This document shows, piece by piece, positions 1 to 60,332 of a DNA stretch of 64,000 nucleotides. Origin of the DNA: a virus (lineage: Duplodnaviria; Heunggongvirae; Uroviricota; Caudoviricetes); the IMG/VR virus record IMGVR_UViG_3300045988_155182. One strand, given 5' to 3'. Position 1 is the stretch's first letter, and every line of letters begins with the position of its first letter. The notes below the pieces were generated by a model, which worked only from the letters and a program-made list of their open reading frames with translations, was not told the DNA's origin and did no database searches. Position numbers and translations under genes: made by a program.

Positions 1-83
1 TTAAACAACCTCTGTTCGCAATGCCCGGCAACACGCTGGGCATTTTCATATAGACACAATCCCTTCTGATTTACGCATACCCT

Positions 84-149
84 AAAACAATTTGTTTTCT
101 GCCTTTTGTTAATTGAGATAATAAGCCACATAAGAAAACAAATTGTTTC
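84..149 (+). promoter_or_regulatory. Two adjacent copies of the early operator palindrome (aaaacaatttgttttc at 84-99; agaaaacaaattgtttc at 133-149)
   Basis: Inverted repeat AAACAA-N-TTGTTT seen directly; the same motif recurs upstream of at least 10 genes in the window. Confidence 0.5.
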
Positions 150-161
150 GGAGTGGTTGAA

Positions 162-461
162 ATGTTGAACATTACCCAAGCCTACCAGGTGGCATTGATC
201 AGTTCATCTCATACATCAGAGGAAGATGCTCGTCGATTCATGATCGCAAGCAATGAGCTGGATTGGGTTTCGCAAATTGACGGCGGTTGTATTGTCCACG
301 CCGGGTTACAGGATGATGTCTGGAAAGACGACTTGCGTCGATATGGTATATCCGAAGGCGCGATTGCTAACATTCAGAAAGTACTTGATGTAGGCTTTGA
401 CTCTGTACATTTTGATTGTGGTGCGCCGGTCGTTGAAGGGCTTGAGTGCTGGAACTGGTAA
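162..461 (+). CDS. Hypothetical early protein (acidic, about 100 aa)
   Basis: ORF track 153..461; ATG at 162 has GGAG about 8 nt upstream; sits directly behind the operator palindrome. Confidence 0.5.
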   Translation: MLNITQAYQVALISSSHTSEEDARRFMIASNELDWVSQIDGGCIVHAGLQDDVWKDDLRRYGISEGAIANIQKVLDVGFDSVHFDCGAPVVEGLECWNW

Positions 462-506
462 CAGATATTAAAGCATTGGTAGTTTGTTTTTAGGATTATC
501 AAAGAA

Positions 507-1241
507 ATGAAAAAGTTGAAAAGTTTAGAAATCCCTGGGACTGGTTATAAATTCTTTATGGACAACGCGGAGTGTGCACCTAACGCGTTGGAAAAAATAC
601 AAAGTCTTATCAACAGCCTTACTGAAGAAGCGAAAGAACTGAAGAGCGAGGCGACAAAGGACAATACAGCTAAAATCCAATGCTTAAATCTCGTTTCTTA
701 TTGTTTATATCAAGTGTCCAAGACACTGATTAAAGGCAATATCTATTACGACGATGAAGACACCTCGACACCTGAAGAAAAAGATAGCGATGAAGAACTC
801 TATGAAGATATCTCTACTAGTGCGGGTCACGCTGCCTTCGATGCTATGGGTGAATCGTCAGGCATCAGATCATTTGTTGAACAGAACAATTCGACAATAA
901 TGATTGAGTACTGTGAACAAACAAGCTCCAAGGCCATACATGTTCTTCACGATGTTGCTGCAGGGGTTCGCTGTGAGGCTGAAGCGGTCAGAAAAGATGT
1001 ATTTGGTGCAGACAGTAATACCGTGAAAGCGTTCATCAACAGTGCTCTGCTAAATTCTTACTCAAACCTTATCGTCAATGCGGCACTATGCGCAAATTCT
1101 GGTGAAGAACACATTGTCATAACCGAAACCAAATATGAGCATCAACAGTCACCAACCATAGAAGAGGTAACTGCATTGGCTATCAAACAGGCGAGTGAAA
1201 TTAGTGATGAAATTCTCTCTCTGCTAAACAAAACTAAGTAA
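507..1241 (+). CDS. Hypothetical acidic protein (244 aa)
   Basis: ORF track; Asp/Glu-rich; no motif recognised. Confidence 0.5.
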   Translation: MKKLKSLEIPGTGYKFFMDNAECAPNALEKIQSLINSLTEEAKELKSEATKDNTAKIQCLNLVSYCLYQVSKTLIKGNIYYDDEDTSTPEEKDSDEELYEDISTSAGHAAFDAMGESSGIRSFVEQNNSTIMIEYCEQTSSKAIHVLHDVAAGVRCEAEAVRKDVFGADSNTVKAFINSALLNSYSNLIVNAALCANSGEEHIVITETKYEHQQSPTIEEVTALAIKQASEISDEILSLLNKTK

Positions 1242-1249
1242 AACATTGA

Positions 1250-2238
1250 TAATGGCGGTCACAATTTGATTCTTTTCTATAAGAATCCGTTGATCGCCAC
1301 TACTCCCCTTCCATACCCGCAATCACATCCTTAAATATCAATAAGTTATAGTTGTTTATACAATCAAGAAAACAACTGAATAACAGATCAACGAAACATC
1401 AACGCTTTCACCCGATTTGGTCTAAAAAATTGACGTTTTCACACATCACTGCTTATACCCGTAATTCTACGCAGCAGACAGCGCCACAGCGTCCAATTTT
1501 CACCACAGACGACCCAACACACTACCAACAAAAACACACGCTCAAAATCGCTCCCGTTGCGTTACACAACCATATAAACAACTTATTTTCAGGCATAACA
1601 AAACAACTAAATAACACACATGCCATTTCCAAAAACAACCAACCTCTTTATGGCAGGCTACCGAAAAGACCCACCTCTTCTCCCCAGGCTACCGGACAAC
1701 CAACCTAACTTTCACAGGCAATCCGAAAACATTCATACGCGCGATACCCACGACACGCCATTACCCAAACAGCGAAGAAACACCAGAATCACTGAACCCC
1801 CAACGAAGCCTGTAACCGCAAGGCTTCTCTCAATCCCAAAAGACACGAAACAGAACAATCACGGGAAACGCCATTACCCAACACACGAATAACTACAAAA
1901 GCCTTTCACACTCCAGACAAACAACTCAAACACAATAACGAAAGCAATCGCCCACCTGCCATTACTCCATACACGGAGAAGAACAATCACCAAAACGACG
2001 AGAACACCCCATAGAAGAACCACCGCAAAACGAACGAAACCACATACACCGACAGAGAGAACAACACACCCAATTCACCAACAGAATTAGTCGCCGTATA
2101 GAACGTTCTGGAAGGAGTGAGTATTAACGTCCATAGAGAGGTTGAGACAGATAAAACACGAATAAAACACAACATGTATAGCGAAGAAGCCAGGTATGTA
2201 TAAGTGGGGAGAGAAGGAGGGGTGTCGCCTCCTTTTTC
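1250..2238 (+). ncRNA. Candidate long non-coding transcript: strongly A+C-rich, G+T-poor tract ending at a rho-independent terminator
   Basis: Plus strand visibly dominated by A and C for about 0.8 kb; ORFs here give low-complexity T/P/Q/H/N peptides with no RBS; possible -35-like TTGATA near 1245 and an operator-like caagaaaacaa near 1365; hairpin plus T-run at 2215-2238. Confidence 0.3.
2215..2238 (+). terminator. Rho-independent terminator (aggagg-loop-cctcct + TTTTT)
   Basis: GC hairpin followed by T-run, seen directly. Confidence 0.55.
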
Positions 2239-2302
2239 GTATTTATTCAACTCCTGATTTTACCCCCCCCGTAACACCCCTACGGTCAGCCTTCGGTCCA
2301 TA

Positions 2303-2437
2303 CAGGGAAAAGGCTGCATCCCGCTACAGAAACGGCTGGGTTGCCTTCGGGGAACGGCTGGAGGTTTTCAGGGAAACGGTCGAGTTGCCTGTGTGGATTT
2401 CGGGAAAAGGCTCGATGCCGGTTCAGGAACGGTGGCG
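2303..2437. repeat. Iteron-like cluster 1: six direct repeats, consensus about cRGGRAAMGGYYG, starting near 2303, 2326, 2348, 2369, 2400, 2424
   Basis: Direct repeats at about 21-23 bp spacing (one 32 bp gap), i.e. roughly two helical turns; seen directly. Confidence 0.55.
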
Positions 2438-2745
2438 TACCGGTATAGCGAGAGGGAGAGTTGCGGCTACCCACCTGTAATGTGCGGGAAGAAGAGAGGC
2501 GCTCACGTGCAGGCGAACTTACTTACCGCTGGATTCCCTCTGAATGCCCAGCTACAGCGTAATTGTGCCAGACAGCCAACGGGTCACAATCGATTTCAGT
2601 AGGTTTTCGGGGAGATGATTATTCTGCCCACCAGCCACCTTCGGCCACTAAATCAGAATAATGTAAAAAGTGTACTCGGTACTGAACCTGAAAACTCACT
2701 GCCAAAACCACATTCACCGGAATAAAATCCTTTTTCGCCTGTGCG

Positions 2746-2786
2746 TTATTGCGATAATAACACCATCAAGAAAACAACATGTTTAA
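2746..2786 (+). promoter_or_regulatory. Conserved early promoter/operator cassette (gcgataat-aACACCatCAAGAAAACAAcaTGTTTA)
   Basis: Near-identical cassettes at about 4890-4923 and 5376-5409; GATAAT-like -10 followed by the operator palindrome. Confidence 0.5.
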
Positions 2787-2796
2787 GGATTGCTTT

Positions 2797-3126
2797 ATGT
2801 TTACAAATATCGACATCAACCAAATCAAGAAATTAACTCAAAAAGAGTTTGATCAGTTTTATGAGTTAGAAGGTTTGTCTTCCACTCTGATCAATTCAAG
2901 ATGGGTGCTGGAGCTGATGACTCGTGATGACGCACCTGCTTTGATGATTTGCGACATGGGTGAAGATGCTGACTTTATGGATATGAGCGAATTTTGTGTG
3001 GACACATACAACCGCAGCCAGAAGTACTACTTCACATGCGATAGCGAGAATGACGTTATTTCTAAGGTCTATCTTCACCTCGTCCAGCATTGGGACGTTC
3101 AGGAGTTTCTTGAAGTATTCGAGTAA
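2797..3126 (+). CDS. Hypothetical small acidic early protein
   Basis: ORF track 2779..3126; ATG at 2797 has AAGGA 7 nt upstream; Asp/Glu-rich. Confidence 0.5.
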   Translation: MFTNIDINQIKKLTQKEFDQFYELEGLSSTLINSRWVLELMTRDDAPALMICDMGEDADFMDMSEFCVDTYNRSQKYYFTCDSENDVISKVYLHLVQHWDVQEFLEVFE

Positions 3127-3251
3127 CCCCAACCAAAGCCAGCATTGCTGGCTTAATTTCTCTATAGCCGCAGGGAAGAACCTGCATATCGCTCATGCAC
3201 CTGATCAATATGCTTTGTAGCCGTTTTCTTACTGGTATTATTTACGCCATT

Positions 3252-3270
3252 GAGAAAACAAGTTGTTTAC
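3252..3270 (+). promoter_or_regulatory. Early operator palindrome (gagaaaacaagttgtttac)
   Basis: Motif family member immediately upstream of the 3280 gene. Confidence 0.45.
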
Positions 3271-3279
3271 GGAGTTGTG

Positions 3280-3591
3280 ATGAAAAAATCATTGGTTCTT
3301 GGTCTGGACAAAGACCAGAAGAGAAAAGAGAAGCCTGCGCTGGTTGCTCAATTAACTTTGCTGGACATCGTTGCCAATGGAACCTCTATTCGTCTGTTCC
3401 GTGAAACAGCGGTGTCTTTCGATAAAAACACCTTTACTCGTTATGTAATGAATGTTCGTCGCCAGCGTGGAAAAGGCTGGATGGCATTTCAAAGAATGTG
3501 GCCGGAACATCAGCTCGAACTGGCTTTGATGGAAGTTAACCGCGTGGCCCAGCAAGAAATTCAGAGAGCATCAGTGATGGCAATAGCCTGA
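3280..3591 (+). CDS. Hypothetical small basic early protein
   Basis: ORF track 3250..3591; internal ATG at 3280 preceded by GGAG. Confidence 0.5.
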   Translation: MKKSLVLGLDKDQKRKEKPALVAQLTLLDIVANGTSIRLFRETAVSFDKNTFTRYVMNVRRQRGKGWMAFQRMWPEHQLELALMEVNRVAQQEIQRASVMAIA

Positions 3592-3625
3592 TAATGTGCA
3601 AGTGGTAATTAGTCGACAGTACGAC

Positions 3626-3654
3626 AGCCCCGCCATCCTTACGGGGCTTTTTTG
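3626..3654 (+). terminator. Rho-independent terminator (agccccg-loop-cggggct + TTTTTT)
   Basis: Seen directly after the 3280..3591 gene. Confidence 0.6.
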
Positions 3655-3658
3655 TATT

Positions 3659-3674
3659 GTAAGTACATACTTAC
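3659..3674. repeat. GTAAGTA-N2-TACTTAC palindrome (first of at least 16 copies)
   Basis: gtaagtacatacttac; family recurs upstream of many genes across the window. Confidence 0.55.
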
Positions 3675-3717
3675 TATCATAGAATATAAAAATAACCAAA
3701 ACACTACGGAGAGTGAA

Positions 3718-4113
3718 ATGACCGTTAAACGCGAAAAACTGACAGTTGATGTTTACTATGCCTCTGAAACCGCCGAAGGTAAGAATGTGGCAAAAATCAC
3801 CGTTGTTACGTACAACACCGAAACTGGTGCCGAAGTCCAGGCCAGTACGATCGTGCGTAAAGGTGATGCCTCCGACGGCGAGTACGCGACTCAATACCAG
3901 TCTATTTTCGATGCAACTGACCCGCTGCTGCTGAAAATCGAGAACTACTTCCGCCAGGTTGATGAAGAGGTGTTTGAAACCATGATGAATATGGTTAACA
4001 CCGTATTCGCCTCCAACCTGAATACCAACACTGCCTGGATTGGTCAGTACGGCCTGCGCATTACCTCTGGCATTCCTGCCGACACCTTAATCCCTGAAAG
4101 CGTATTCGCTTAA
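3718..4113 (+). CDS. Hypothetical protein (132 aa)
   Basis: ORF track 3652..4113; ATG at 3718 preceded by GGAGAG; lies between a terminator and the next terminator. Confidence 0.5.
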   Translation: MTVKREKLTVDVYYASETAEGKNVAKITVVTYNTETGAEVQASTIVRKGDASDGEYATQYQSIFDATDPLLLKIENYFRQVDEEVFETMMNMVNTVFASNLNTNTAWIGQYGLRITSGIPADTLIPESVFA

Positions 4114-4121
4114 TCCTCTTT

Positions 4122-4150
4122 AAATGGCGCGTAAACCGCGCCATTTTATT
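4122..4150 (+). terminator. Rho-independent terminator (atggcgcg-taaac-cgcgccat + TTTT)
   Basis: Seen directly. Confidence 0.6.
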
Positions 4151-4157
4151 AAGCCCG

Positions 4158-4175
4158 ATAACAATTTGTTTTCTG
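4158..4175 (+). promoter_or_regulatory. Early operator palindrome (ataacaatttgttttctg)
   Basis: Motif family member upstream of the 4231 gene. Confidence 0.45.
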
Positions 4176-4230
4176 CCTTATCTGATTTGTGAAAATGATT
4201 TCACTGAAGCAACTTAATAAGGAAACCATC

Positions 4231-4605
4231 ATGGGACTTGATATCTATATCGAGACACAGCCTAAAAACGATCTGAATAACGAGGCATCCAGAAAGCAGG
4301 TTGCTTACTTCCGTAAGTTCAATGCGCTCGTTGGGTGGATGGAGCGCAACGTAGGTGAAGTCGAAAATTGTGAGCTTTTAGAATTAACGATGAATGACAT
4401 TTGTTTTCTGAAGGCTCATTTGATGCACATAAACGAAAGTAATTGCGAAGAGTACTTGCCTACCCGGGAAGGTTTTTTCTTCGGCAGTCAGGAGTACGAT
4501 GAAGGTTACTGGCATGATGTGGGGCAGTTGAAAGAGCTTGTGGAAGATCTGATTAAGAACCACGACTTTCACAATAACAGACTGACCTTCTGCGCCTGGT
4601 GGTAA
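4231..4605 (+). CDS. Hypothetical early protein
   Basis: ORF track 4189..4605; ATG at 4231 has AAGGA 7 nt upstream (the 4189 start is also possible). Confidence 0.45.
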   Translation: MGLDIYIETQPKNDLNNEASRKQVAYFRKFNALVGWMERNVGEVENCELLELTMNDICFLKAHLMHINESNCEEYLPTREGFFFGSQEYDEGYWHDVGQLKELVEDLIKNHDFHNNRLTFCAWW

Positions 4606-4607
4606 AT

Positions 4608-4751
4608 ATGGGCGATTTCAAGAAACGCCTGAAGGAAAGAGCCGAGATGGTCAGAAAGCAAAACGCCTCTTCTGTCATCAGATACGCAAGGCAGTTTAGT
4701 CGCAACAACAAATCAGTTGAGGAAAAGATCCTTAGCGTAATCGGGCGATAA
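4608..4751 (+). CDS. Small basic protein (47 aa), translationally coupled to the upstream gene
   Basis: ATG 3 nt after the upstream stop, open to TAA at 4749-4751; below the ORF-track size cutoff. Confidence 0.3.
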   Translation: MGDFKKRLKERAEMVRKQNASSVIRYARQFSRNNKSVEEKILSVIGR

Positions 4752-4756
4752 TTATT

Positions 4757-4780
4757 AAGGCCACCAGCATTGGTGGTCTT
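4757..4780 (+). terminator. Hairpin aaggccaccagcattggtggtctt (copy 1 of a repeated hairpin element)
   Basis: Near-identical hairpin at 5228-5251; no clear T-run, so it may be a processing or REP-like element rather than a terminator. Confidence 0.4.
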
Positions 4781-4889
4781 AAATGACTTTTAATAACCGA
4801 AGGTTAGTTTGAAACCTGGCTATCAACTTCCAGAACCTTTCTTGTGTATTCAGCCTGTATTAACTTCTTTTATGCCTTATCTACACTGC

Positions 4890-4923
4890 GATAATTACAC
4901 CAACAAGAAAACAACATGTTTAC
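4890..4923 (+). promoter_or_regulatory. Conserved early promoter/operator cassette (copy 2)
   Basis: cgataattacaccaacaagaaaacaacatgtttac. Confidence 0.5.
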
Positions 4924-4940
4924 GCAGTGAGGATATGCTC

Positions 4941-5222
4941 ATGACTGATTTCACCATTACCCCTAAAGCACAAAATGTATTCCTTGAATCATGGCTGGAC
5001 TTGCCGGAAACAGAACAGCAAGAAATGGATCATGTGGATTATGACGAGCAGGTAAGCACGCGATTCTTCCACTTTGAGGGATGCGTTTACGACATTGCCG
5101 ACTTCATGCGAGATGACCGCTTCCCTGAATGGCACGCAAGCTATCCACTAAACGCCTTTGCCATGCTGATGATCCGTGTGGATGATTCAGGGGATACCAT
5201 CGACATCGGTCTGCTCCACTAA
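4941..5222 (+). CDS. Hypothetical small acidic early protein (94 aa)
   Basis: ORF track 4809..5222; ATG at 4941 has GAGGA about 8 nt upstream; the upstream part of the track ORF overlaps the promoter cassette. Confidence 0.5.
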   Translation: MTDFTITPKAQNVFLESWLDLPETEQQEMDHVDYDEQVSTRFFHFEGCVYDIADFMRDDRFPEWHASYPLNAFAMLMIRVDDSGDTIDIGLLH

Positions 5223-5227
5223 AGATT

Positions 5228-5251
5228 AAGGCCACCAATGCTGGTGGCCTT
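5228..5251 (+). terminator. Hairpin aaggccaccaatgctggtggcctt (copy 2)
   Basis: Seen directly. Confidence 0.4.
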
Positions 5252-5375
5252 AAATGACCATCCTGTTTCCCGCAGGCTAAAAACACCAACCTCTTACCTC
5301 CAGGCAACCGACAAACCCACCTGTTCCCGTCCGGCTACCTCAACTTTCCACTTTGACGCCTTATTCATACAACGA

Positions 5376-5409
5376 TAATTAACACCAACAAGAAAACAAT
5401 TTGTTATTT
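5376..5409 (+). promoter_or_regulatory. Conserved early promoter/operator cassette (copy 3)
   Basis: cgataattaacaccaacaagaaaacaatttgttattt. Confidence 0.5.
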
Positions 5410-5426
5410 ACGATAAGGAATTAATC

Positions 5427-5909
5427 ATGAATTTTATCGCTACTGTAAACGCACCCGCACATGGCAATATCGCTGTAACGTTCTCTGACATTGAAAAACG
5501 AGTACTTGGTGCATGGCGCGACAATGAGACGGTAGAACTGTCAGCACAAGAAAAATGCATTATTGCACGCGACATCATTGGCAATCGTCGTTACTCGCGG
5601 GTATTTGAGAAAGCGTATGTGGTAAATTCTGGGTTCGGAACGTTCGTCTTTCCGGTGCGCTCAGGGCGATTCTGCCAGTCCAAGCTGATTGAGTTCGCTA
5701 CGCAGATTTCTGTCTGGATTAAAACTCAATCGTCGTTCAAATTTTCCGACGATGAAGCAGTATCGCAGGGGATGCGGATCGCCAACAATGCGATTAAATG
5801 CAAAAACATTACGTATACCGCTGGCGTTGATACATGGAAACTGTTTTGCGCTAACTTTATGCTGAATGTATACGCAAGCAACCGCATCCACATCCTTGAT
5901 GGCGTGTAA
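5427..5909 (+). CDS. Hypothetical protein (160 aa)
   Basis: ORF track; AAGGA upstream of the ATG. Confidence 0.55.
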   Translation: MNFIATVNAPAHGNIAVTFSDIEKRVLGAWRDNETVELSAQEKCIIARDIIGNRRYSRVFEKAYVVNSGFGTFVFPVRSGRFCQSKLIEFATQISVWIKTQSSFKFSDDEAVSQGMRIANNAIKCKNITYTAGVDTWKLFCANFMLNVYASNRIHILDGV

Positions 5910-5915
5910 CTGAGA

Positions 5916-5939
5916 AGAGGGCCAGAAACGGCCCTTTCT
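5916..5939 (+). terminator. Hairpin gagggcc-agaaac-ggccctttct
   Basis: Seen directly after the 5427..5909 gene. Confidence 0.5.
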
Positions 5940-5958
5940 CTATAGCCACCAGCTGCCG

Positions 5959-6039
5959 CAGGGAAATTTTCAGAAACGGCGAGGAACGCATTCATGAGCC
6001 GACGGGGAACGGCCAGGATTTTTTCGGGAAACGGCTGCA
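5959..6039. repeat. Iteron-like cluster 2 (cagggaaatttt, cagaaacggcgagg, cggggaacggccagg, tcgggaaacggctgc)
   Basis: Same repeat family as cluster 1; last two units about 22 bp apart. Confidence 0.5.
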
Positions 6040-7735: not shown

Positions 7736-8044
7736 TTATTGAACAGACTCTACAGCCTTACGATTGGTGTCAAATAGCGCATCAACGAACTGTGCCGATG
7801 ACTCGCTAGATTCGCAATCCAACATTGCCCGTTCTTCATTTGCCACTTTCTTACACAGTTCCACACTCTCACCTATCGCTTTTCCTGCTTTTACGGCTGC
7901 CGAAAATTGATACATGCAAACTGATACATTCTGAGACGTTGAGCACACGTCATTCATCAGCGACTGAATGACAGGCTTATAGTCCATTGCATTTGCCGCA
8001 ACTGAGCAAAGTAAAAATAATGGTGGTAACAATATCGATTTCAT
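7736..8044 (-). CDS. Secreted/periplasmic small protein with N-terminal signal peptide (MKSILLPPLFLLCSVAANA)
   Basis: ORF track; hydrophobic N-terminus with ANA cleavage-like site; several Cys residues. Confidence 0.5.
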   Translation of the reverse strand: MKSILLPPLFLLCSVAANAMDYKPVIQSLMNDVCSTSQNVSVCMYQFSAAVKAGKAIGESVELCKKVANEERAMLDCESSESSAQFVDALFDTNRKAVESVQ

Positions 8045-8047
8045 AAC

Positions 8048-8572
8048 TCAAAAAGGCAAAATTCGTTCAACCCAATCGAACAAAACAACTATTTTTCTAC
8101 CGTTCTCGACACGTAGTGTAACCTGACAAGCATCTGCGCCTGCTGACACCCCCTCAATTTCACGGCCATCCGCCATGTACACCCTTATAGATTTGTTTGC
8201 TTTGTAGGCTTGGTTGCAAATTGCAAAAAAATCGCGGCGTGATGGCCGATTATCGACATAATCAGGGTGAACTGTTAGTCGACCTTTGAAATCGTGAGCG
8301 ATACTGTCAAACACACCTGATTCAATGGTACTAATGCGTTCAAGTGGGAGCCTTATACGATTTTCTTTGTCAAAAGGGGCTGGGCAAAGGTCAACTTTGT
8401 TACGAGATGGCATGAGGCCATAAACGTACATGCAAAACGCCTGACCATCTTCGAGAGTGACCCTTACAGGAATTTGTTCTCTGCGCCAGAACATCAGTAG
8501 TTTTTCAACGTTAGTGTAATCTCGCGGCCAGAGTTCAGCTTGGATACCGTAGGTAATATCTTTGGTTGTCAT
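8048..8572 (-). CDS. Hypothetical protein
   Basis: ORF track 8048..8608; internal Met gives start/stop coupling with the upstream lipoprotein gene. Confidence 0.45.
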   Translation of the reverse strand: MTTKDITYGIQAELWPRDYTNVEKLLMFWRREQIPVRVTLEDGQAFCMYVYGLMPSRNKVDLCPAPFDKENRIRLPLERISTIESGVFDSIAHDFKGRLTVHPDYVDNRPSRRDFFAICNQAYKANKSIRVYMADGREIEGVSAGADACQVTLRVENGRKIVVLFDWVERILPF

Positions 8573-8576
8573 GTCA

Positions 8577-9041
8577 TCACAGAGTTGTTGGCAGAATGTC
8601 GATGTCACCAGAATTGCTGGTGAACACCCTGAATGCTTTTGTGTCTCTATTCTTCAGAGTCGTTTCTCGCTCTTGACGAGCGGGGTTTAGAGCACATAAA
8701 CCTGCACCTTCAAGAGATGCACCCACAATTAATTCTCCGGCATTTAAATGGAAAGTCGCTTTTTCGCCTGTAGCCAGTTTTGCGACAGTTTCGCCGTTGA
8801 TGAAAATGGAAGCATCACATCCAGCTCCTACAAAACCTGTGTCTCTCATTACCACCAACGTAGCTGGCGCTGCGCTTTGATACTTGAACACTTTGGCCTG
8901 CGGTGCTGGTTTGGCGTCATGGATTGATATTGGGCGTGATTGGCACGCGGTAAGCATCAACACTGGTAACGTTAGTAGAGGGAGAAGCGAGTATTTCATG
9001 ATAGTTTTAGAACAGAAAGTGAACAGTATGGGAGACTTCAT
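8577..9041 (-). CDS. Putative lipoprotein (lipobox LTAC); candidate superinfection-exclusion protein
   Basis: ORF track; hydrophobic segment followed by L-T-A-C; start ambiguous (9041 has GGGAGA RBS; Met at 8999 gives a shorter, more typical signal peptide). Confidence 0.5.
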   Translation of the reverse strand: MKSPILFTFCSKTIMKYSLLPLLTLPVLMLTACQSRPISIHDAKPAPQAKVFKYQSAAPATLVVMRDTGFVGAGCDASIFINGETVAKLATGEKATFHLNAGELIVGASLEGAGLCALNPARQERETTLKNRDTKAFRVFTSNSGDIDILPTTL

Positions 9042-9067
9042 CTTTGTCTCCCTAATTGATAGCGTGA

Positions 9068-9346
9068 TTATTTTAATCTGCTTAATAGCGTTTCGAGATC
9101 TTCCTTTGTCATATTAGAGTTCTCATAGATACGCATGATTTTCTCACGAGTCTTAGCGGAAGCCCCGACAGAAGATATAACCTTGTCAAAGTCGGCCATT
9201 GTCAATTGTTCCAGAATGGTATTTATGACTTCAGCCTTAGACATTTTGATATTTTTTTCTTTTAGTTTCACTTGAAACTTTCCAAGTTTGTCATTGGCCT
9301 TATCAGACAATGCTACCTGACAGTAAGTTGTTTTCTTTTCACTCAT
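9068..9346 (-). CDS. Hypothetical small protein (92 aa)
   Basis: ORF track; coupled to the upstream helicase gene. Confidence 0.45.
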   Translation of the reverse strand: MSEKKTTYCQVALSDKANDKLGKFQVKLKEKNIKMSKAEVINTILEQLTMADFDKVISSVGASAKTREKIMRIYENSNMTKEDLETLLSRLK

Positions 9347-9348
9347 AA

Positions 9349-10908
9349 CTAATCTCGTTTCAGAACTCCAAAATCGAATGCTCCATCAATAGGCAATACA
9401 CCTTCTGCAAAGCCAGGTGTGGTGTCGATGATGTGTTTTCGCTCATAAGAGTGAGACAACAGGTATTTGTTGCTAATGTCAATGAAATCAGTGATAAAAC
9501 ACACGTTTGCCTGATTTTTTTTGGCTCGTAAGCCACGACCGACACGCTGTCTCATTTCAACTTCTGCTTTCCCACCACCAGCAAGAATGACCGCACCAAC
9601 GCTTGGCACATCAACACCAACATCCAGAATAGTCGAGCCTATTAAAACATCTATTTCACCAGACGCTAAACTATTCAGCTTTGCTTGCCTTGTCGTCTGG
9701 TTAGATTCCCCATAGATGAAATCAACTTTAAGACCTGACTCCTTCATCATCTCCATCAGGATTTGCCCGTGGCGTTTAAGACGAACCAGAGTCATGCAGT
9801 TGAGTGAATGTTGCTTATAAAGCAATGCCTCGCGCACTATGGCCTCGTTACGTCCCAAATTATACACGATCCCCAACTGATAAGCCTTTTGGTAGGCGGT
9901 GCTCATACCAACTCTAAAATTAAGGTGTTTGTTGGCAAGTTCCGCCTTGATTCTGACCTCGTCTGGCTTGTAAGCAACTTTATGATAAAGGAAGTACGGT
10001 TTTGCCAGAATGCCTCGATCAATCAGGTACTTTTCTGTGACTTTAATTTCAATTCGACCGGCCACAGCCATCAGACGCATGTTGGCTTCTGTAGAATCCT
10101 TCATGAACGGCGTGGCCGTAAGCGCCAGACGATAGTCTGCGTTCACACATAATCTGGCAATGTCATAGAAATTAGAGCCTGAAGACTCATGCGCTTCTTC
10201 CAGAATAAGCAGAGACACACTTGAAAGGAAGCGTTTCACTAGCTCCCGACGTTTGAGGTGGTAGCTCTTTTTATCTGGTGTTGCATCGCGTGGTGGTTCT
10301 TCAAGGAAACTTGCCAGAGTTTGAACTGTAGCGACGTTGATATGTCGTGATACCTGGAACTCACCCGAGCCAATGACTCCAACCTTTTGGTCTTTTAACC
10401 ACGGTTCGCCATTTTCGGCGCGGTAGTCGATGGATCTCTGGAAGTTTTCGGCCATTTGAAACATCAGAACAGAGCGGGTTGTTAAAAATAATGTCATTCG
10501 ACCGATACGTGCAGCTGCTTTGCAGGCAACGTTAGATTTCCCGCCACCAGTAGCGATCTGCGCAATCATCATTCCCTCTCGAACCAGTGTTTCCACAGTC
10601 TGATCCTGATACGCATAATCAGGATTGTATGGGAATGGGTTAACCGCCGGATTTGGTTTACCAAGCGCCGGGGCTTTGTCTTTGCGGATATGAACACATT
10701 TGATGCCCGCCTTGTTCAAGTTCGCCGCTACAGGCTTGGCAAAGCCAGCAGGGAACGAGTTTTTACTCCAGTTGAACATCGTGCTTGTGCCCTTCCAGTC
10801 GCCAGTCTCGACTTCGTAGCTCAACATTTGCTGCACCAGTTGCTTTACCTTGTCATCTGCGCCAGAAATAAGCGCATTTACTGCGTTAGATACAATCCGA
10901 ACAGTCAT
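9349..10908 (-). CDS. Superfamily 2 DEAD/DEAH-type helicase (519 aa)
   Basis: Motif I ATGGGKS, motif II LILEEAHE, motif III LTATP, motif VI QRVGRGLR in the translation. Confidence 0.75.
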   Translation of the reverse strand: MTVRIVSNAVNALISGADDKVKQLVQQMLSYEVETGDWKGTSTMFNWSKNSFPAGFAKPVAANLNKAGIKCVHIRKDKAPALGKPNPAVNPFPYNPDYAYQDQTVETLVREGMMIAQIATGGGKSNVACKAAARIGRMTLFLTTRSVLMFQMAENFQRSIDYRAENGEPWLKDQKVGVIGSGEFQVSRHINVATVQTLASFLEEPPRDATPDKKSYHLKRRELVKRFLSSVSLLILEEAHESSGSNFYDIARLCVNADYRLALTATPFMKDSTEANMRLMAVAGRIEIKVTEKYLIDRGILAKPYFLYHKVAYKPDEVRIKAELANKHLNFRVGMSTAYQKAYQLGIVYNLGRNEAIVREALLYKQHSLNCMTLVRLKRHGQILMEMMKESGLKVDFIYGESNQTTRQAKLNSLASGEIDVLIGSTILDVGVDVPSVGAVILAGGGKAEVEMRQRVGRGLRAKKNQANVCFITDFIDISNKYLLSHSYERKHIIDTTPGFAEGVLPIDGAFDFGVLKRD

Positions 10909-10952
10909 AAACCTCTTTCCTTAGTGCCTTTTGTATGTTATTTGGCTATTAT

Positions 10953-10972
10953 AATAAGTAAGTGATTACTTA
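10953..10972. repeat. TAAGTA palindrome variant (ataagtaagtgattacttag) in divergent promoter region
   Basis: Seen directly. Confidence 0.45.
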
Positions 10973-13897: not shown

Positions 13898-14164
13898 ATG
13901 ACGTTAACCGACAAACAAAAGGACATCATCAAAACGCTCAATCTCGGTTATGAGCGAGGTCATCTACTTGACCTGGACGAATTGCTTGAAGTTTTGCCGT
14001 ACAAGACAACCAAGCAAAGTATCCAGTTCTCAATTCGCGCTCTGATAAAAAAGGGGCTGGTGGAGAAAGGGCATACGCGCCAACGCAGTGACAATCGCTA
14101 TCACCGCCGGACTCTTGGGTTAACCACTTTAGGTCGAGCCAAAGCGAAGTTACTGGTGATGTAA
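13898..14164 (+). CDS. Small basic protein, possible winged-helix DNA-binding protein
   Basis: ORF track; composition only. Confidence 0.35.
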   Translation: MTLTDKQKDIIKTLNLGYERGHLLDLDELLEVLPYKTTKQSIQFSIRALIKKGLVEKGHTRQRSDNRYHRRTLGLTTLGRAKAKLLVM

Positions 14165-14278: not shown

Positions 14279-14322
14279 AGAAAACAAGTTGGTTAGCAGA
14301 TGCAGTAAACAAGTTGTTTTAG
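14279..14322 (+). promoter_or_regulatory. Double early operator (agaaaacaagttggtt ... taaacaagttgttttag)
   Basis: Motif family member upstream of the terminase small subunit gene. Confidence 0.45.
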
Positions 14323-23245: not shown

Positions 23246-23262
23246 GGTAAGTATATACTTAC
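23246..23262. repeat. GTAAGTA-TA-TACTTAC perfect palindrome
   Basis: ggtaagtatatacttac. Confidence 0.55.
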
Positions 23263-29744: not shown

Positions 29745-29770
29745 TGGATAAGTAAGTACTAATTTACTAT
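29745..29770. repeat. TAAGTA palindrome variant (ggataagtaagtactaatttactatc)
   Basis: Seen directly. Confidence 0.45.
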
Positions 29771-45319: not shown

Positions 45320-45337
45320 AAGAAAACAAGTTGTTTC
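45320..45337 (+). promoter_or_regulatory. Early operator palindrome (agaaaacaagttgtttc) upstream of parA
   Basis: Motif family member. Confidence 0.45.
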
Positions 45338-45371
45338 AGACGATAATTATATACGCAAAGGGAACTCTCCA

Positions 45372-46040
45372 ATGACCAAGATCTTTGTGGTTGGCGGCAC
45401 AAAGGGCGGGCCTGGCAAATCCACCGTTGCCCAGCAAATTGCCGTTTGCCTGAAAGTCAAAAAGAAGAAGAAGGTTTATATTACCGATATAGATATTCAG
45501 CGCACGACAACGAGCTGGTGTGAAGACCGTCGACAGAACGAAGACCTTGAGCTGATTCCTTTTGCATACGTTCAGGATGACATCATTAAGCACCTAAAAT
45601 CGCTTCAGGGTAGAGCTGAGTTTGTAGTGGTAGATGCTGGTGGCTTCGACTCCGAAATTCAGCGACAAGCGATGCTGATGGCCGACGTTATCATTATCCC
45701 GCTTCGTCCTAAGCGTCGTGATTTGAAATCTCTGCGTGATATCGATCCTATTATCGACAATGTTCGTAATGTAAACGATAAAGTGAAGGTCCGCGCGGTC
45801 ATGAACCAGTGTCCGGCTTTGCCATCACAAGTGTCTCGCATTCTGGCGGCTAAAGAGATTGTTGAGACGTTTGGCATCGAGTCTGCGCCAGTCAATCTAT
45901 ATAACCGCAACGTCTATGATGATGCGGAAGAGTCTGGTCGTTCTATCTTTGAAATGACCGGTAGCGAGCGCGACAAAAAGGCGGAAGCCGAGTTTGAAGA
46001 ATTTGTAGATTATCTGTTGAGTCTGGAGGAAAAAGAATAA
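45372..46040 (+). CDS. parA: ParA partition ATPase (deviant Walker A)
   Basis: VVGGTKGGPGKST deviant Walker A typical of ParA/MinD/Soj. Confidence 0.8.
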   Translation: MTKIFVVGGTKGGPGKSTVAQQIAVCLKVKKKKKVYITDIDIQRTTTSWCEDRRQNEDLELIPFAYVQDDIIKHLKSLQGRAEFVVVDAGGFDSEIQRQAMLMADVIIIPLRPKRRDLKSLRDIDPIIDNVRNVNDKVKVRAVMNQCPALPSQVSRILAAKEIVETFGIESAPVNLYNRNVYDDAEESGRSIFEMTGSERDKKAEAEFEEFVDYLLSLEEKE

Positions 46041-46399
46041 TGTCCATGAAAATGGGTGACCTAGCAAAGCGCAAAGAGCCTGATGCACCGGCTAAGAACA
46101 CAACTCCTTTGCGCCAACCAGTCAGACCACAGGGACGCCCGACTCGTGGCAAAGAGAAAATTAAAAGCCGCACAATGTCACTGGAGGACGAATACTTCGA
46201 ACTGCTGGAGATGATGAAGTTCATCCCTCGCTTCGAGAAGTTCACTCGTTCTGACGTGATTCGTGCTGCTATTTTCCATCTTGCGGAGAAGACACCGCAG
46301 GAAATCGAGGACATCGTGAAACTTAACGAGGCGATCACCGCTGCCGATGTCACGATGCGTACCGATGAAATCAAACGCGAGTTGATGAAGAAAGGTTAA
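46040..46399 (+). CDS. Small partition partner, ParG/RHH-type centromere-binding protein (putative)
   Basis: ATGA overlap with parA; basic N-terminus and RHH-like C-terminus. Confidence 0.5.
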   Translation: MSMKMGDLAKRKEPDAPAKNTTPLRQPVRPQGRPTRGKEKIKSRTMSLEDEYFELLEMMKFIPRFEKFTRSDVIRAAIFHLAEKTPQEIEDIVKLNEAITAADVTMRTDEIKRELMKKG

Positions 46400-49348: not shown

Positions 49349-49365
49349 AGAAAACAATTTGTTTA
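49349..49365 (+). promoter_or_regulatory. Early operator palindrome (agaaaacaatttgttta)
   Basis: Motif family member upstream of the helicase gene. Confidence 0.45.
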
Positions 49366-49383
49366 AAAAACAAAGGAAAGCAC

Positions 49384-58302: not shown

Positions 58303-59406
58303 ATGAAAAATAGCTTTGACAGAGCACGCGCTGCGGAGAACACCTCAAAAGAGGCGATAGAGTATCTCGAAAGAGCATCTCAAATGCAGGCCGTTATGAT
58401 CTCCCAGGTCAGCAATGACATGAGATTCTCGGACGCATTCATGTTATTCACTCGCTTATCTCTGCTGATAACCAGACGTCGGCCAGAGATCGCTGTTCAT
58501 TGTATTTTGATACATGTTTTGCCGCACATTGCCGATGTAAAAGTAAGTGACATTAATAGGTTCATGGTGAACCAACTGGTCAACCCACTAATACTGGATG
58601 GCAAAATTGTTATGGGCCGCCGCGTTTTCTCTCTGATGAAGCAGTTCCTTAGCTGGTGCGCCTTCCAGGGGATGATAGACGTGTCACCGTTGAACGATAT
58701 GTCACTTAACAAAGTTGCCGGTGGCGCAAAGCCCACACCTCGCGAGCGGAAGCTGACCGACGCAGAGGTATGGGTGTTCTGGAATATATGGGACTACTTC
58801 AATGTGTGTGCTGGTACAAAATGGGCGGCCAGGCTATGTCTTGTATCCGCAAGACGACCTGACGAAGTACTGCGGGCTAAAAAAAGTGAGTTCAATCTTA
58901 AGCGTGGGGTTTGGAATCAAGGCAAGAGGAACAAATCTGCCCGTGAGCATTCTCTGCCTTTAAGCTCATTAATGCGCACTTGTATTGAAGAGTTGTTCGA
59001 ATATGGTAAAGACAGCCAGTGGCTCGTGCCTTCGAATAAAAAAATCGGGAAAGACCTTCCTATGTCTAAAGTGGCAATAGCCCAGGCATTACGTCGTATT
59101 CTGGAACGACCAGAACTGATGGAGCTTGAGCCATTTACACCCCGAGATTTGCGCCGTACTGCGCGTAGTTACTTCCCAGCATTAGGCATAAGCCAGGAGG
59201 TATCACGTAAAATCATGAACCACAGTCTTGAGGGGATAGATCGGGTCTACGACCGGCACGATTATATGGACGAGATGCGAGACGCCTTAGAAAGTTTCTC
59301 GACGTACATCGCATCAATCGTAGAGCAACCGGATTTAGACGAAATTGACCACAAATTTAAGGGAGATCGTCTATCAACAGAGCTTATTCGTGTAAATTTT
59401 TCATAG
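58303..59406 (+). CDS. int: Tyrosine-type integrase/recombinase
   Basis: C-terminal catalytic pattern (RDLRRTARSYF ... HSLEGIDRVYDRHDY) consistent with the R..H..R..Y tyrosine recombinase signature. Confidence 0.8.
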   Translation: MKNSFDRARAAENTSKEAIEYLERASQMQAVMISQVSNDMRFSDAFMLFTRLSLLITRRRPEIAVHCILIHVLPHIADVKVSDINRFMVNQLVNPLILDGKIVMGRRVFSLMKQFLSWCAFQGMIDVSPLNDMSLNKVAGGAKPTPRERKLTDAEVWVFWNIWDYFNVCAGTKWAARLCLVSARRPDEVLRAKKSEFNLKRGVWNQGKRNKSAREHSLPLSSLMRTCIEELFEYGKDSQWLVPSNKKIGKDLPMSKVAIAQALRRILERPELMELEPFTPRDLRRTARSYFPALGISQEVSRKIMNHSLEGIDRVYDRHDYMDEMRDALESFSTYIASIVEQPDLDEIDHKFKGDRLSTELIRVNFS

Positions 59407-59787
59407 AGACTTTATGGCCTCAACAACCTTTTGTGATGCGCCTTTCTCTTTACCGAATCGCTCGTTATATGCAGCAAGAACCTGTTTTTCGTCCTCGTTA
59501 AGAGGAGCAGTGCCTTCTTTGTATAAAAATGCTGCGAGTTCGGGTTGGCGTTCTTCCAGCACCATCATCATAAGACGACTTGGCTCAATGCCCAGTGCCA
59601 GCGCCAGCGGACGAACCTTATCGATAGGCAAAGGAATTTTGCCGCTTTTAATTAAAGAAAGGTTGTTGGCGTTTTTATACCCAATTGTTTTGGCTATCTG
59701 GGCCTGGCTCATAGGTGAGGATTCAATCAACCCTGCGATAAAAGCAGCGTAGCGACTTTCTATAAATTCAATCTTGTTATCAGACAT
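59401..59787 (-). CDS. XRE-family HTH transcriptional regulator (cI/Cro-like)
   Basis: HTH-like QAQIAKTIGYKNANNLSLIKSG; convergent with and overlapping the integrase 3' end. Confidence 0.65.
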   Translation of the reverse strand: MSDNKIEFIESRYAAFIAGLIESSPMSQAQIAKTIGYKNANNLSLIKSGKIPLPIDKVRPLALALGIEPSRLMMMVLEERQPELAAFLYKEGTAPLNEDEKQVLAAYNERFGKEKGASQKVVEAIKSL

Positions 59788-60251: not shown

Positions 60252-60317
60252 CCCCTCTTCTCCCTGCGCGAATGGCTTAGTTCCCTGTTCGCGCAGTGCT
60301 ACATTAAACACACTAGT

Positions 60318-60332
60318 AAATAATTTGTTTTC
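60318..60332 (+). promoter_or_regulatory. Operator half-site variant (aaataatttgttttc)
   Basis: Motif family member upstream of the vWA gene. Confidence 0.35.

What the first reader, a model, noticed from the sequence alone, without database searches (positions are those of the whole stretch)
84..5409. Repeated promoter/operator cassette defines an early regulon of at least ten genes
The palindrome GAAAACAA-N-TTGTTT(T)C lies 15-40 bp upstream of genes at about 84-149, 2768-2785, 3252-3270, 4158-4175, 4905-4923 and 5390-5409, and also upstream of terminase small (14279-14322), parA (45320-45337), the DnaB-like helicase (49349-49365) and the vWA gene (60318-60332). Three copies share an extended 35-40 bp cassette including a GATAAT -10-like box. 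This implies one repressor or activator coordinating early, partition and replication genes. The genes it controls in the early region are small and uncharacterised.
Basis: seen in the sequence. Interest (0 to 1): 0.55.

Follow-up and report, generated by a model that had tools for sequence, protein, structure and literature searches.

The report
Repeated operator palindrome in phage-plasmid promoters

Summary
The window is 98% identical to Escherichia phage Cyrano (pLF82), an SSU5-type phage-plasmid. The core AAACAA-N-TTGTTT occurs 13 times with at most one mismatch. Twelve of these lie outside coding sequence (P = 4e-9), and all precede + strand genes. The sites sit at two fixed positions around an extended -10 box (TGnGATAAT): centred near +13, just before the ribosome-binding site, and centred near -38 in inverted orientation. 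The motif is unchanged in SSU5, pMT1 and a Klebsiella relative whose proteins are only 50-70% identical. It is absent as a family from Providencia and Acinetobacter relatives. Arm changes are never compensated, so it is a sequence-specific DNA site, not a hairpin. In published lysogen RNA-seq the downstream genes are at background, except the parA operon. The best reading is a repressor operator regulon, comparable to P1 C1 operators or the RK2 Kor regulon. The binder is unknown. The best candidate is the small ParG-position protein encoded after parA. The XRE repressor's own promoter carries a different palindrome, which belongs to a second dispersed family (TAAGTA-NN-TACTTA). I found no published description. 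Interest is moderate.

The parts
83..99 (+). Upstream (D-type) copy of the palindrome, TAAAACAATTTGTTTTC, centred about -38 of the promoter of the gene at 162-461
   Evidence: exactly 17 nt upstream of the -10 box, as in 12 other cassettes from four genomes
114..122 (+). Extended -10 box TGAGATAAT of the first cassette
134..150 (+). Promoter-proximal (P-type) palindrome GAAAACAAATTGTTTCG, 11 nt after the -10 box and 11 nt before the ATG at 162
1574..1590 (+). Weaker D-type copy ATAAACAACTTATTTTC. TAAATA follows 17 nt downstream, at the entry of an A/C-rich non-coding stretch. Membership uncertain
   Evidence: homologous sites in SSU5 (90746) and KP979 (87190)
2750..2786 (+). Cassette: TGCGATAAT (2750-2758), 11 nt, palindrome GAAAACAACATGTTTAA (2770-2786), then AAGGA and the ATG at 2797
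3233..3270 (+). Cassette: TGGTATTAT (3233-3241), 12 nt, palindrome GAAAACAAGTTGTTTAC (3254-3270), then GGAG and the ATG at 3280
4157..4196 (+). D-type palindrome GATAACAATTTGTTTTC (4157-4173), 17 nt (the last three, TGT, open the box), then GAAAAT (4191-4196), together TGTGAAAAT (4188-4196); gene ATG at 4231
4887..4923 (+). Cassette: TGCGATAAT (4887-4895), 11 nt, palindrome GAAAACAACATGTTTAC (4907-4923); gene ATG at 4935 or 4941
5374..5408 (+). Cassette: GATAAT (5374-5379), 12 nt, palindrome GAAAACAATTTGTTATT (5392-5408); gene ATG at 5427
14280..14321 (+). Two copies 25 bp apart (14280-14296 and 14305-14321), upstream of the small terminase gene (ATG 14360) and just inside the genome end used in the Cyrano and SSU5 records (window 14227)
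   Evidence: conserved in SSU5, pMT1 and KP979
45322..45338 (+). Palindrome GAAAACAAGTTGTTTCA in the parA promoter, 33 nt before the ATG at 45372
   Evidence: conserved upstream of parA in SSU5 and KP979
49350..49366 (+). Palindrome GAAAACAATTTGTTTAA, 17 nt before the DnaB-like helicase ATG at 49384
   Evidence: footprint alignment
60316..60332 (+). Palindrome GTAAATAATTTGTTTTC, 17 nt before the vWA/CobT-like gene ATG at 60350
45372..46399 (+). parA (45372-46040, small ParA ATPase) and the 119-aa protein in the ParG position (46040-46399). This is the best candidate trans factor (inferred, not shown)
   Evidence: lysogen expression
59401..59787 (-). Its own promoter region (59788-60038) lacks the palindrome
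8048..8608 (-). FljA-family (Pfam Flag1_repress) protein, a minor candidate factor (likely ATG near 8569)
3280..3591 (+). Conserved 103-aa gene behind a P-type site. Four-strand sheet plus helix; it occurs only in genomes that have the motif. A minor candidate feedback regulator

Best explanation
The palindrome is a double-stranded-DNA operator for a symmetric (dimeric or tetrameric) sequence-specific repressor. It is built into a repeated host-sigma-70 promoter cassette of the extended -10 type.

Full cassette: ..CC-T(T/A)AAACAAnTTGTTTTC (about -46 to -30), 17 nt whose last three bases are the TGn of TGnGA(T/A)AAT, the hexamer GA(T/A)AAT, 11-12 nt, GAAAACAAnTTGTTTA(A/C) (about +5 to +21), Shine-Dalgarno, ATG. 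Individual promoters keep one site or both. Both positions lie under RNA polymerase, so an occupied site should block initiation.

The regulon has about 11 transcription units in the window and about 15 in the whole 108-kb element. It covers small unknown genes at 162-5909, terS, parA, the helicase operon and the vWA/AAA/DNA polymerase operon. Outside the window it covers nrdB and others.

Shown: the sites, their geometry, their conservation and the silence of the downstream genes in lysogens. Inferred: the transcription start sites, negative control and the identity of the binder.

My ranking of binders:
- the ParG-position protein at 46040-46399, about 0.3
- another element-encoded DNA-binding protein (for example 3280-3591, or the winged-helix proteins at 13898-14164 and 54693-54908), about 0.25
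- a host factor of Enterobacteriaceae, about 0.1-0.15
- the XRE repressor, about 0.1
- the FljA-like protein, under 0.1
For: 1. Enrichment and placement. 13 core sites, 12 non-coding, P = 4e-9. In the complete Cyrano genome 18 sites lie 18-80 nt upstream of + strand genes and none precede - strand genes. The three that fall in annotated coding sequence lie in a dubious ORF or in over-extended gene starts.
2. Fixed register to the -10 box: 17 nt for upstream sites and 11-12 nt for proximal sites. Distance to the ATG varies from 9 to 38 nt. Four of the nine TGnGA(T/A/C)AAT boxes in the window sit in these cassettes.
3. Dyad symmetry with no compensation. At positions 1-6 of the arms, 0 compensated changes against 50 broken pairs and 9 possible G-U pairs. 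Predicted 5' leaders do not use the hairpin.
4. Conservation. The core is the same in SSU5 (about 22 sites), pFF979_1 (17 exact sites; its proteins are 50-70% identical) and pMT1. It is the top-ranked palindrome in blind palindrome counts of Cyrano and pFF979_1. It survives where flanks have diverged.
5. Silence in lysogens. In LF82 lysogen RNA-seq (PMC9928086, S1 Table) the first genes behind the sites have a median of 7.5 against a prophage median of 9.8. These promoters have near-consensus extended -10 boxes, which by established knowledge work without a -35 box.
6. For the ParG-position protein. It is expressed in the lysogen (89). Its own operon carries the site and is the motif-A unit most clearly expressed (parA 49.8; the helicase at 21 and CYRAN_111 at 25.5 are also above twice the median), which is an autoregulation signature. 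The segments RPQGRPTRGK..IKSRTMSxEDE and FTRSDVIRAAI are invariant although overall identity falls to 48%. There is a weak hit to the aCcr1 family, which I recall (not checked here) to be ribbon-helix-helix (E = 2e-4, below cut-off). ParA is of the small type.
Against: - No transcription start site, binding or regulation was measured. Start sites are inferred from the -10 boxes.
- Background-level RNA in lysogens would also fit promoters that need an activator.
- Expression of the motif genes does not differ significantly from the rest of the prophage, most of which is silent too (Mann-Whitney p = 0.25).
- The Providencia homologue keeps the IKSRTVSMEDE strand, yet its parA promoter has only a degenerate cassette without the palindrome.
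- pMT1 keeps six sites without this par system.
Confidence: 0.62

Rival explanations
1. The XRE-family repressor (59401-59787) binds the palindrome and is the master lysogeny repressor of this regulon.
For: It is expressed in the lysogen (95.8). Homologues next to the integrase are found in about 865 related plasmids with the same host distribution as the helicase. The recognition helix NANN(L/I)SLIKSG is conserved between Cyrano and pFF979_1, which share the motif. SSU5, isolated as a virion, lacks the gene and could be a deletion variant.
Against: There is no copy of the palindrome in its own divergent promoter region, which carries GGTAAGTGCTTACC instead. The XRE promoters of pFF979_1 and of the Acinetobacter relative carry half-sites of their second-family palindromes. 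The recognition helix is also kept in Providencia and Acinetobacter relatives that lack the motif family.
Confidence: 0.1
2. The palindrome is a positive element. An element-encoded activator or sigma-appropriating factor binds it and turns these promoters on after infection or induction. They are silent in lysogens because the activator is absent.
For: Upstream sites centred near -38 are close to class II activator positions. Lysogen silence fits as well. The cassettes have no recognisable -35 box.
Against: Most sites lie downstream of the -10 box (about +5 to +21), directly before the ribosome-binding site. This is a repressor position, not an activator position. The -10 boxes are of the TGn-extended type with 5 of 6 matches, which normally need no activator (established knowledge). 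The parA operon carries the site and is on in lysogens.
Confidence: 0.12
3. The proximal copies act in the mRNA. They are 5'-leader operators for the FljA-family protein (8048-8608, - strand), which would block translation and destabilise the transcripts, as FljA does with fliC mRNA.
For: The gene is a full-length Flag1_repress member (E = 3e-84) with two Sm/Hfq-like repeats. FljA acts after transcription on fliC mRNA (cited in PMC2652032). Proximal sites lie in the predicted leader next to the Shine-Dalgarno sequence. The gene occurs in the three motif-bearing genomes compared and in neither of the two that lack the motif. It is kept on a Klebsiella plasmid and on Yersinia pestis pMT1, hosts I take from general knowledge (not checked here) to make no flagella, so it likely has an internal target.
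Against: Upstream copies stand in fixed register to the -10 box and are not in the transcript of their own promoter. Perfect dyad symmetry has no use in single-stranded RNA. A hairpin is excluded by the 1-nt spacer and the lack of compensation. The protein is only 34% identical in pFF979_1 while the motif is unchanged. The E. coli fliC leader has no similar sequence.
Confidence: 0.07
4. A conserved host transcription factor of Enterobacteriaceae binds the palindrome, and the element has recruited it to many promoters.
For: The motif is invariant across elements of E. coli, Salmonella, Klebsiella and Yersinia whose proteins have diverged to 50-70% identity. It is missing from relatives in Providencia and Acinetobacter.
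Against: No E. coli factor known to me has this consensus; this is recall only and was not tested.
Confidence: 0.12
5. The similarity is only shared ancestry. A promoter plus terminator cassette was copied between gene modules, as with the PeSL cassettes of T4-type phages, and no dedicated binding protein exists.
For: The cassette is a conserved unit of about 60 bp that flanks small single-gene modules bounded by terminator hairpins. Gene content between cassettes differs among relatives.
Against: The 13-base core stays intact where flanks have diverged and across genomes with 50-70% protein identity. It also occurs without the rest of the cassette at terS, helicase, vWA and parA.
Confidence: 0.05

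Closest known systems
Dispersed C1 repressor operators of phage-plasmid P1 (immunity regulon)
   Same: A plasmid-prophage whose lytic and replication functions are split into many separate transcription units. Each carries a copy of one operator overlapping the promoter, instead of one or two early operons.
   Different: P1 operators are asymmetric 17-mers (ATTGCTCTAATAAATTT, from memory) bound by the 283-aa C1 protein. Here the site is a perfect dyad of different sequence. No C1 homologue was looked for, and the binder is unknown.
KorA/KorB global regulon of IncP plasmid RK2
   Same: A 13-base palindrome of 6-N-6 form is repeated at about a dozen promoters of replication, partition and other operons. 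Some copies are centred near -39. The binder, KorB, is the partition protein of the plasmid, so partition and global repression are coupled.
   Different: The sequence differs (TTTAGCSGCTAAA versus AAACAANTTGTTT). KorB is a ParB-family CTPase with a helix-turn-helix. The two ParB-like genes of this element have essentially no reads in lysogens and carry the other palindrome in their promoter.
Type Ib partition operons autoregulated by a small ribbon-helix-helix protein (ParF/ParG of TP228; delta/omega of pSM19035, where omega is a global regulator)
   Same: A small ParA (222 aa) is followed by a small basic protein, with an operator in the parA promoter. In pSM19035, omega represses copy-number, partition and toxin-antitoxin promoters through short repeats in direct or inverted order.
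   Different: The ribbon-helix-helix fold is not demonstrated here. There is a single 17-bp palindrome rather than arrays of 7-8-bp repeats. The regulon would extend to phage genes such as terS, which is not known for any ParG or omega.
PeSL (promoter-early stem-loop) cassettes of T4-type phages
   Same: Repeated early-promoter plus hairpin modules bracket small unknown genes in a variable region and may promote module shuffling.
   Different: PeSLs are not known to contain an operator. Here the conserved core is a palindrome that also occurs outside the variable region.
Lambdoid CI/Cro operators (XRE-family repressors)
   Same: 17-bp pseudo-palindromes overlapping promoters; the phage 434 half-site is ACAA/TTGT.
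   Different: Lambdoid operators cluster in the cI-cro divergent region, and their half-sites are separated by about 6 bp. Here the repressor's own region has no copy, and the half-sites are separated by 1 bp.

Membership tests
Transcriptional operator within a sigma-70 promoter (generic) | Non-coding location, upstream of genes, far above chance | tested here: met
Transcriptional operator within a sigma-70 promoter (generic) | Fixed register to core promoter elements | tested here: met
   17 nt and 11-12 nt from a TGn-extended -10 box. The promoters themselves are predicted, not mapped
Transcriptional operator within a sigma-70 promoter (generic) | A protein binds the site and changes transcription | not testable with these tools
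   Only indirect evidence: the downstream genes are at background in lysogen RNA-seq
P1 C1-type immunity regulon | Asymmetric 17-bp operator of the P1 consensus | tested here: not met
   The site is a dyad of unrelated sequence. The P1 consensus is from memory
P1 C1-type immunity regulon | C1-family repressor encoded | not tested
   No C1 sequence was available. No Pfam or PHROG hit named C1 among the proteins scanned
RK2 KorB-type regulon | ParB-family protein expressed in the plasmid state as binder | tested here: not met
   The ParB-like genes (CYRAN_119 and 120) read 5.0 and 9.5, at floor or background. Their promoter carries the other palindrome family
RK2 KorB-type regulon | 13-bp 6-N-6 palindrome at many promoters, some near -39 | tested here: met
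   Geometry only; the sequence differs
Type Ib par operon with ParG/omega-like autoregulator | Small Walker-type ParA without an N-terminal DNA-binding domain | tested here: met
   222 aa; NCBIfam ParA_partition E = 1.9e-33, below the curated cut-off
Type Ib par operon with ParG/omega-like autoregulator | Downstream small protein with a ribbon-helix-helix fold | tested here: inconclusive
   For: the sequence pattern, the invariant strand and helix, and a weak aCcr1 hit. No support
Type Ib par operon with ParG/omega-like autoregulator | Operator or centromere repeats in the parA promoter | tested here: met
   The palindrome is the only member of a dispersed repeat family upstream of parA; a few short local hairpins and palindromes are also present. 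It is a single palindrome, not an array
Lambdoid CI/Cro (XRE) switch | Operators clustered between the repressor gene and the divergent gene | tested here: not met
   There is no copy in 59788-60038
FljA-type post-transcriptional control | FljA-family protein present | tested here: met
   Pfam PF03614, E = 2.9e-84
FljA-type post-transcriptional control | Target element acts in the mRNA leader | tested here: inconclusive
   Proximal sites are in the predicted leaders. Upstream sites are not, and there is no RNA structure or compensation
Structured RNA or DNA hairpin element | Compensatory changes keep the pairing | tested here: not met
   0 compensated changes against 50 broken pairs at arm positions 1-6. 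No Rfam family at these sites

The most novel reading that the evidence does not exclude
The palindrome is the binding site of the small ParG-position partner of ParA (46040-46399). This protein would then work like omega of pSM19035 or KorB of RK2, but in a phage. It would autoregulate the partition operon and at the same time silence about 15 phage promoters (small early-type genes, terS, helicase, nrdB, the vWA/polymerase operon). The decision to stay a plasmid or run the lytic programme would be wired to the partition machinery. A second palindrome family (TAAGTA-NN-TACTTA) would form a separate regulon tied to the XRE repressor.
Probability: 0.25. Interest if true: 0.7.

Novelty: new member of a known kind. 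Interest (0 to 1): 0.45.

Why it matters
SSU5-type phage-plasmids (pHCM2, pLF82, pSLy3 and pKpn groups, and part of Yersinia pestis pMT1) are common in clinical Enterobacteriaceae: more than 900 plasmid records carry the helicase. How they choose between plasmid maintenance and lytic growth is not described in the papers I could search.

This cis element gives a concrete map of one regulon: which promoters, which positions and which bases. Together with the second palindrome family it turns the question into simple experiments such as EMSA with four or five named proteins, reporter fusions and 5' end mapping. It also corrects gene starts and one product name in the deposited annotation. The kind of system, a dispersed operator regulon on a plasmid-prophage, is already known from P1 and RK2, so the surprise for a specialist is moderate unless the partition-protein link holds.

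Tried and rejected
1. RNA or DNA hairpin reading. Rejected: no compensatory changes, and predicted leaders do not fold through the palindrome.
2. Link to the FljA target. The E. coli fliC leader was fetched and has no similar sequence. The primary FljA papers are not held.
3. Host-factor test. Uninformative.
6. pMT1 as a natural deletion test. It keeps most candidates and six sites, so it discriminates little.
7. The simple -35/-10 scan finds none of the cassette promoters, because they have no -35 box.
8. CYRAN_117-type protein (9068-9346, - strand; ribbon-helix-helix by pattern, expressed in the lysogen). Set aside because its putative DNA-reading strand differs in pFF979_1 while the motif does not.
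9. Rfam: no family at the sites.

Full report
**What the window is.** Bases 1-6000 are 98.3% identical to Escherichia phage Cyrano (OV696614.1, the pLF82 phage-plasmid of E. coli LF82) and more distantly related to Salmonella phage SSU5. Window base 1 is Cyrano 93030, and window 14227 is base 1 of the Cyrano and SSU5 records. The window is a mosaic relative of Cyrano, not Cyrano itself. Bases 7738-9093 are replaced by an SSU5-like segment, and there are further replacements near 39.9-42.7, 46.4-48.4 and 56.3-58.2 kb.

**Check of the observation.**
- GAAAACAANTTGTTT with up to two mismatches gives 24 strand-matches against 1.37 expected. None of 100 dinucleotide shuffles reaches 24.
- I built a coding mask by mapping the Cyrano proteins onto the window. 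The 13-base core AAACAANTTGTTT with up to one mismatch then has 13 sites, 12 with their centre in the 16.5% of the window that is non-coding (binomial P = 4.4e-9). Shuffled intergenic DNA gives 0.013 sites.
- The one 'coding' site (4909) lies in the first codons of an over-extended annotated start. An ATG with a proper Shine-Dalgarno sequence follows at 4935 or 4941.
- In the complete Cyrano genome 9 of 9 exact and 15 of 18 one-mismatch sites are intergenic. The other three lie in a dubious ORF or in over-extended starts. All 18 lie 18-80 nt upstream of + strand genes, and none precede a - strand gene.
- A blind count of all 6-N(0-6)-6 palindromes puts AAACAA-N-TTGTTT first in Cyrano and in a Klebsiella relative.

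**Anatomy.** There are two classes of site.
- Proximal sites read GAAAACAAnTTGTTTA(A/C). They lie 11-12 nt downstream of a -10 box that is usually of the extended type: TGAGATAAT, TGCGATAAT twice, TGGTATTAT, and GATAAT. They end 9-18 nt before the start codon, directly in front of the Shine-Dalgarno sequence. At terS, parA, helicase and vWA the -10-like hexamers are weaker (CCTAAT, TATATC, TCTAAT, TGCTACATT).
- Upstream sites read T(T/A)AAACAAnTTGTTTTC, which is the inverted orientation. They end exactly 17 nt before the -10 hexamer in 13 cassettes from four genomes.
- With a start site about 7 nt after the -10 box, the two classes are centred near +13 and -38, about 51 bp or five helical turns apart. 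The better-conserved arm (GAAAACAA) faces the -10 box in both. The start site is inferred, not mapped.
- The cassette consensus is CC-T.AAACAA.TTGTTTTC-TGCCTTTTCT.A..TG.GA.AAT-AA..CCAA..AGAAAACAA.
- Four of the nine TGnGA(T/A/C)AAT boxes in the window belong to these cassettes.
- The simple -35/-10 scan misses them because they have no -35 box. It does find terminator-like hairpins between the small genes, so the region 84-5909 is a row of single-gene modules, each with its own cassette.

**DNA site or RNA element.** I compared sites from three genomes. At arm positions 1-6, departures from the consensus are never compensated on the other arm: 0 compensated, 50 broken, 9 possible G-U pairs. 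Predicted leader structures do not use the palindrome. A 1-nt spacer cannot form a hairpin loop. Upstream sites are not part of the transcript of their own promoter. Distance to the -10 box is fixed while distance to the ATG varies. Together this points to recognition of double-stranded DNA by a symmetric protein. No Rfam family matches the sites.

**Conservation.**
- SSU5 has about 22 sites in the same kinds of position.
- Klebsiella plasmid pFF979_1 has 17 exact cores and 27 within two mismatches. Its helicase is 70% identical and most of its proteins 40-80% identical.
- Yersinia pestis pMT1 keeps six sites in front of the genes it retains.
- In alignments of orthologous upstream regions the palindrome survives in diverged flanks for helicase and parA. 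The vWA gene of pFF979_1 has lost it, so membership of the regulon turns over.
- A Providencia relative (helicase 60%) and an Acinetobacter relative (38%) do not have the family. The Providencia parA promoter holds a degenerate copy of the cassette without the palindrome.

**Expression.** The LF82 study gives RNA-seq values for every Cyrano gene in a lysogen (PMC9928086, S1 Table).
- First genes behind the palindrome have a median of 7.5, against 9.8 for the whole prophage. The floor value is 5.
- The exceptions are parA (49.8), the helicase (21.1) and CYRAN_111 (25.5).
- The difference from the rest of the largely silent prophage is not significant (p = 0.25). This shows only that these promoters are off in the plasmid state.
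- Extended -10 promoters normally need no activator (established knowledge), so being off argues for repression. That step is inference.

**Who binds.** I could not settle this. The evidence for each candidate follows.
- *XRE protein (59401-59787).* It is expressed in lysogens, and homologues are present in about 865 related plasmids. Its own promoter region has no copy and instead carries GGTAAGTGCTTACC. The equivalent regions of pFF979_1 and of the Acinetobacter plasmid carry half-sites of a different dispersed palindrome. Its recognition helix is kept in relatives that lack the motif. SSU5 lacks the gene yet keeps the sites, which is weak evidence because SSU5 may be a deletion variant.
- *The 119-aa protein after parA (46040-46399).* It is annotated in Cyrano as a RelE/ParE toxin but sits where type Ib partition systems encode their centromere-binding autorepressor. 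It is expressed in lysogens (89). Its operon carries the palindrome and is the most clearly expressed unit of the regulon, as expected for autoregulation. The segments IKSRTMSxEDE and FTRSDVIRAAI are invariant down to 48% overall identity. Support for a ribbon-helix-helix fold is limited to the sequence pattern and a sub-threshold aCcr1 hit. All other tests were empty. The Providencia homologue keeps the strand without the palindrome.
- *A host factor.* This would explain the invariance of the motif but could not be tested.

**Comparison with known systems.** The arrangement works like the dispersed C1 operators of P1 and like the KorA/KorB regulon of RK2. If the ParG-position protein is the binder, it also works like omega of pSM19035. 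It is not a member of any of these by sequence. The ParB-like genes of the element are not expressed in lysogens, so a KorB-type mechanism is not met. The row of promoter-plus-terminator modules around small genes also recalls the PeSL cassettes of T4-type phages. I found no description of this motif or of any SSU5-type regulatory circuit in the searchable literature. Absence from that library is not proof of absence.

**Verdict.** The feature is real, conserved and functionally placed: an operator-like palindrome in a repeated promoter cassette that defines a regulon of an SSU5-type phage-plasmid. The kind of system is known. This member appears undescribed, and its binder is open. Interest is moderate (0.45). 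It would be higher if the partition-protein link is confirmed.

Noticed in passing
window 3660-3673, 10959-10972, 17753-17770, 23248-23261, 29749-29762, 36672-36685, 42727-42740, 48573-48586, 55356-55369, 62477-62490; variants at 14217, 48453, 52011, 57768 and 59819-59832: A second dispersed palindrome family, TAAGTA-NN-TACTTA (often GTAAGTAnnTACTTAC), gives 11 hits with up to one mismatch against 0.09 expected. It lies 20-60 nt upstream of structural and lysis genes, ssb, sbcD, thyX, the parB operon and the gene at 3718. It usually sits just before or over a -10-like TAnnnT. A related GGTAAGTGCTTACC sits in the XRE promoter. This may be the XRE operator or a late-promoter box of the P1 Lpa type.
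   Followed up: partly
L013-L015 (Acinetobacter baumannii plasmid p107.0Kbp, NZ_CP035046.1): This distant relative has its own dispersed palindrome, ATCAGTCAGTACTGACT, in about 28 intergenic copies. The copies directly abut a TATACT -10-like box, in front of early and late genes. Half-sites lie near its XRE gene. It looks analogous to the second family, not to the palindrome studied here.
   Followed up: partly
window 8048-8608, - strand: A full-length FljA-family gene (Pfam Flag1_repress, E = 3e-84) with two Sm/Hfq-like repeats is conserved in SSU5, pMT1 and, at 34% identity, on a Klebsiella plasmid. I take Klebsiella and Yersinia pestis to be non-flagellate from general knowledge (not checked here), so a role limited to repressing host fliC seems unlikely. 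The Acinetobacter relative encodes an Hfq-annotated protein next to its helicase.
   Followed up: partly
window about 1300-2100: An 800-nt stretch without credible ORFs has strong strand asymmetry (GC skew about -0.45, AT skew up to +0.59, that is A/C-rich and G/T-poor on the + strand). It is preceded by a weak upstream-type site plus TAAATA at 1574-1613 and followed by a terminator-like hairpin at 2211-2237. The Cyrano annotation places two ORFs here that have almost no reads. It is partly conserved in SSU5. Its function is unknown. A C-rich, G-poor transcript would be an ideal Rho substrate.
   Followed up: no
window 58303-59787 (integrase and XRE gene): Phage SSU5 lacks this module entirely. 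Homologues next to an integrase occur in about 865 plasmid records, with the same host distribution as the helicase. The type phage may therefore be a deletion variant of the plasmid-prophages.
   Followed up: partly
window 46040-46399: The Cyrano homologue (CYRAN_29) is annotated 'RelE/ParE putative toxin'. Its position directly after a small ParA and its conserved basic N-terminal region fit a partition adaptor instead. No toxin family matched it.
   Followed up: partly
window 2779 versus 2797, and 4809/4874-equivalent versus 4935/4941: The annotated or longest-ORF starts of two genes (CYRAN_105 and CYRAN_110 homologues) run through the palindrome. Downstream ATGs with proper Shine-Dalgarno sequences are more plausible.
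   Followed up: partly
window 42432-42630: A full-length match to Rfam family IS009 (189.6 bits, gathering score 117) lies just upstream of the holin and lysis genes.
   Followed up: no
window 7738-9093 and around 39.9-42.7, 46.4-48.4 and 56.3-58.2 kb: These segments do not align with Cyrano. 8050-12968 aligns better in arrangement with SSU5 (79% identity). Cyrano's most highly expressed lysogen gene, CYRAN_43, is absent from the window. A 302-aa ORF on the - strand (56765-57673) is present instead of CYRAN_41.
   Followed up: no
L016 (Providencia plasmid pPROV236-2), about 28330-28420, - strand: The parA promoter of this relative holds the only cassette-like sequence in that genome (TTTTATTTTCACCTTTTCTTTCAATTTATAAAT...AGAAAAAATT), with the palindrome degenerated. 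This hints that the cassette may have started at parA and spread in the Enterobacteriaceae lineage.
   Followed up: no
window 162-461: The first gene of the regulon matches DUF5983 (E = 7e-11). The other small genes at 2797-5909 match only PHROG families of unknown function.
   Followed up: partly
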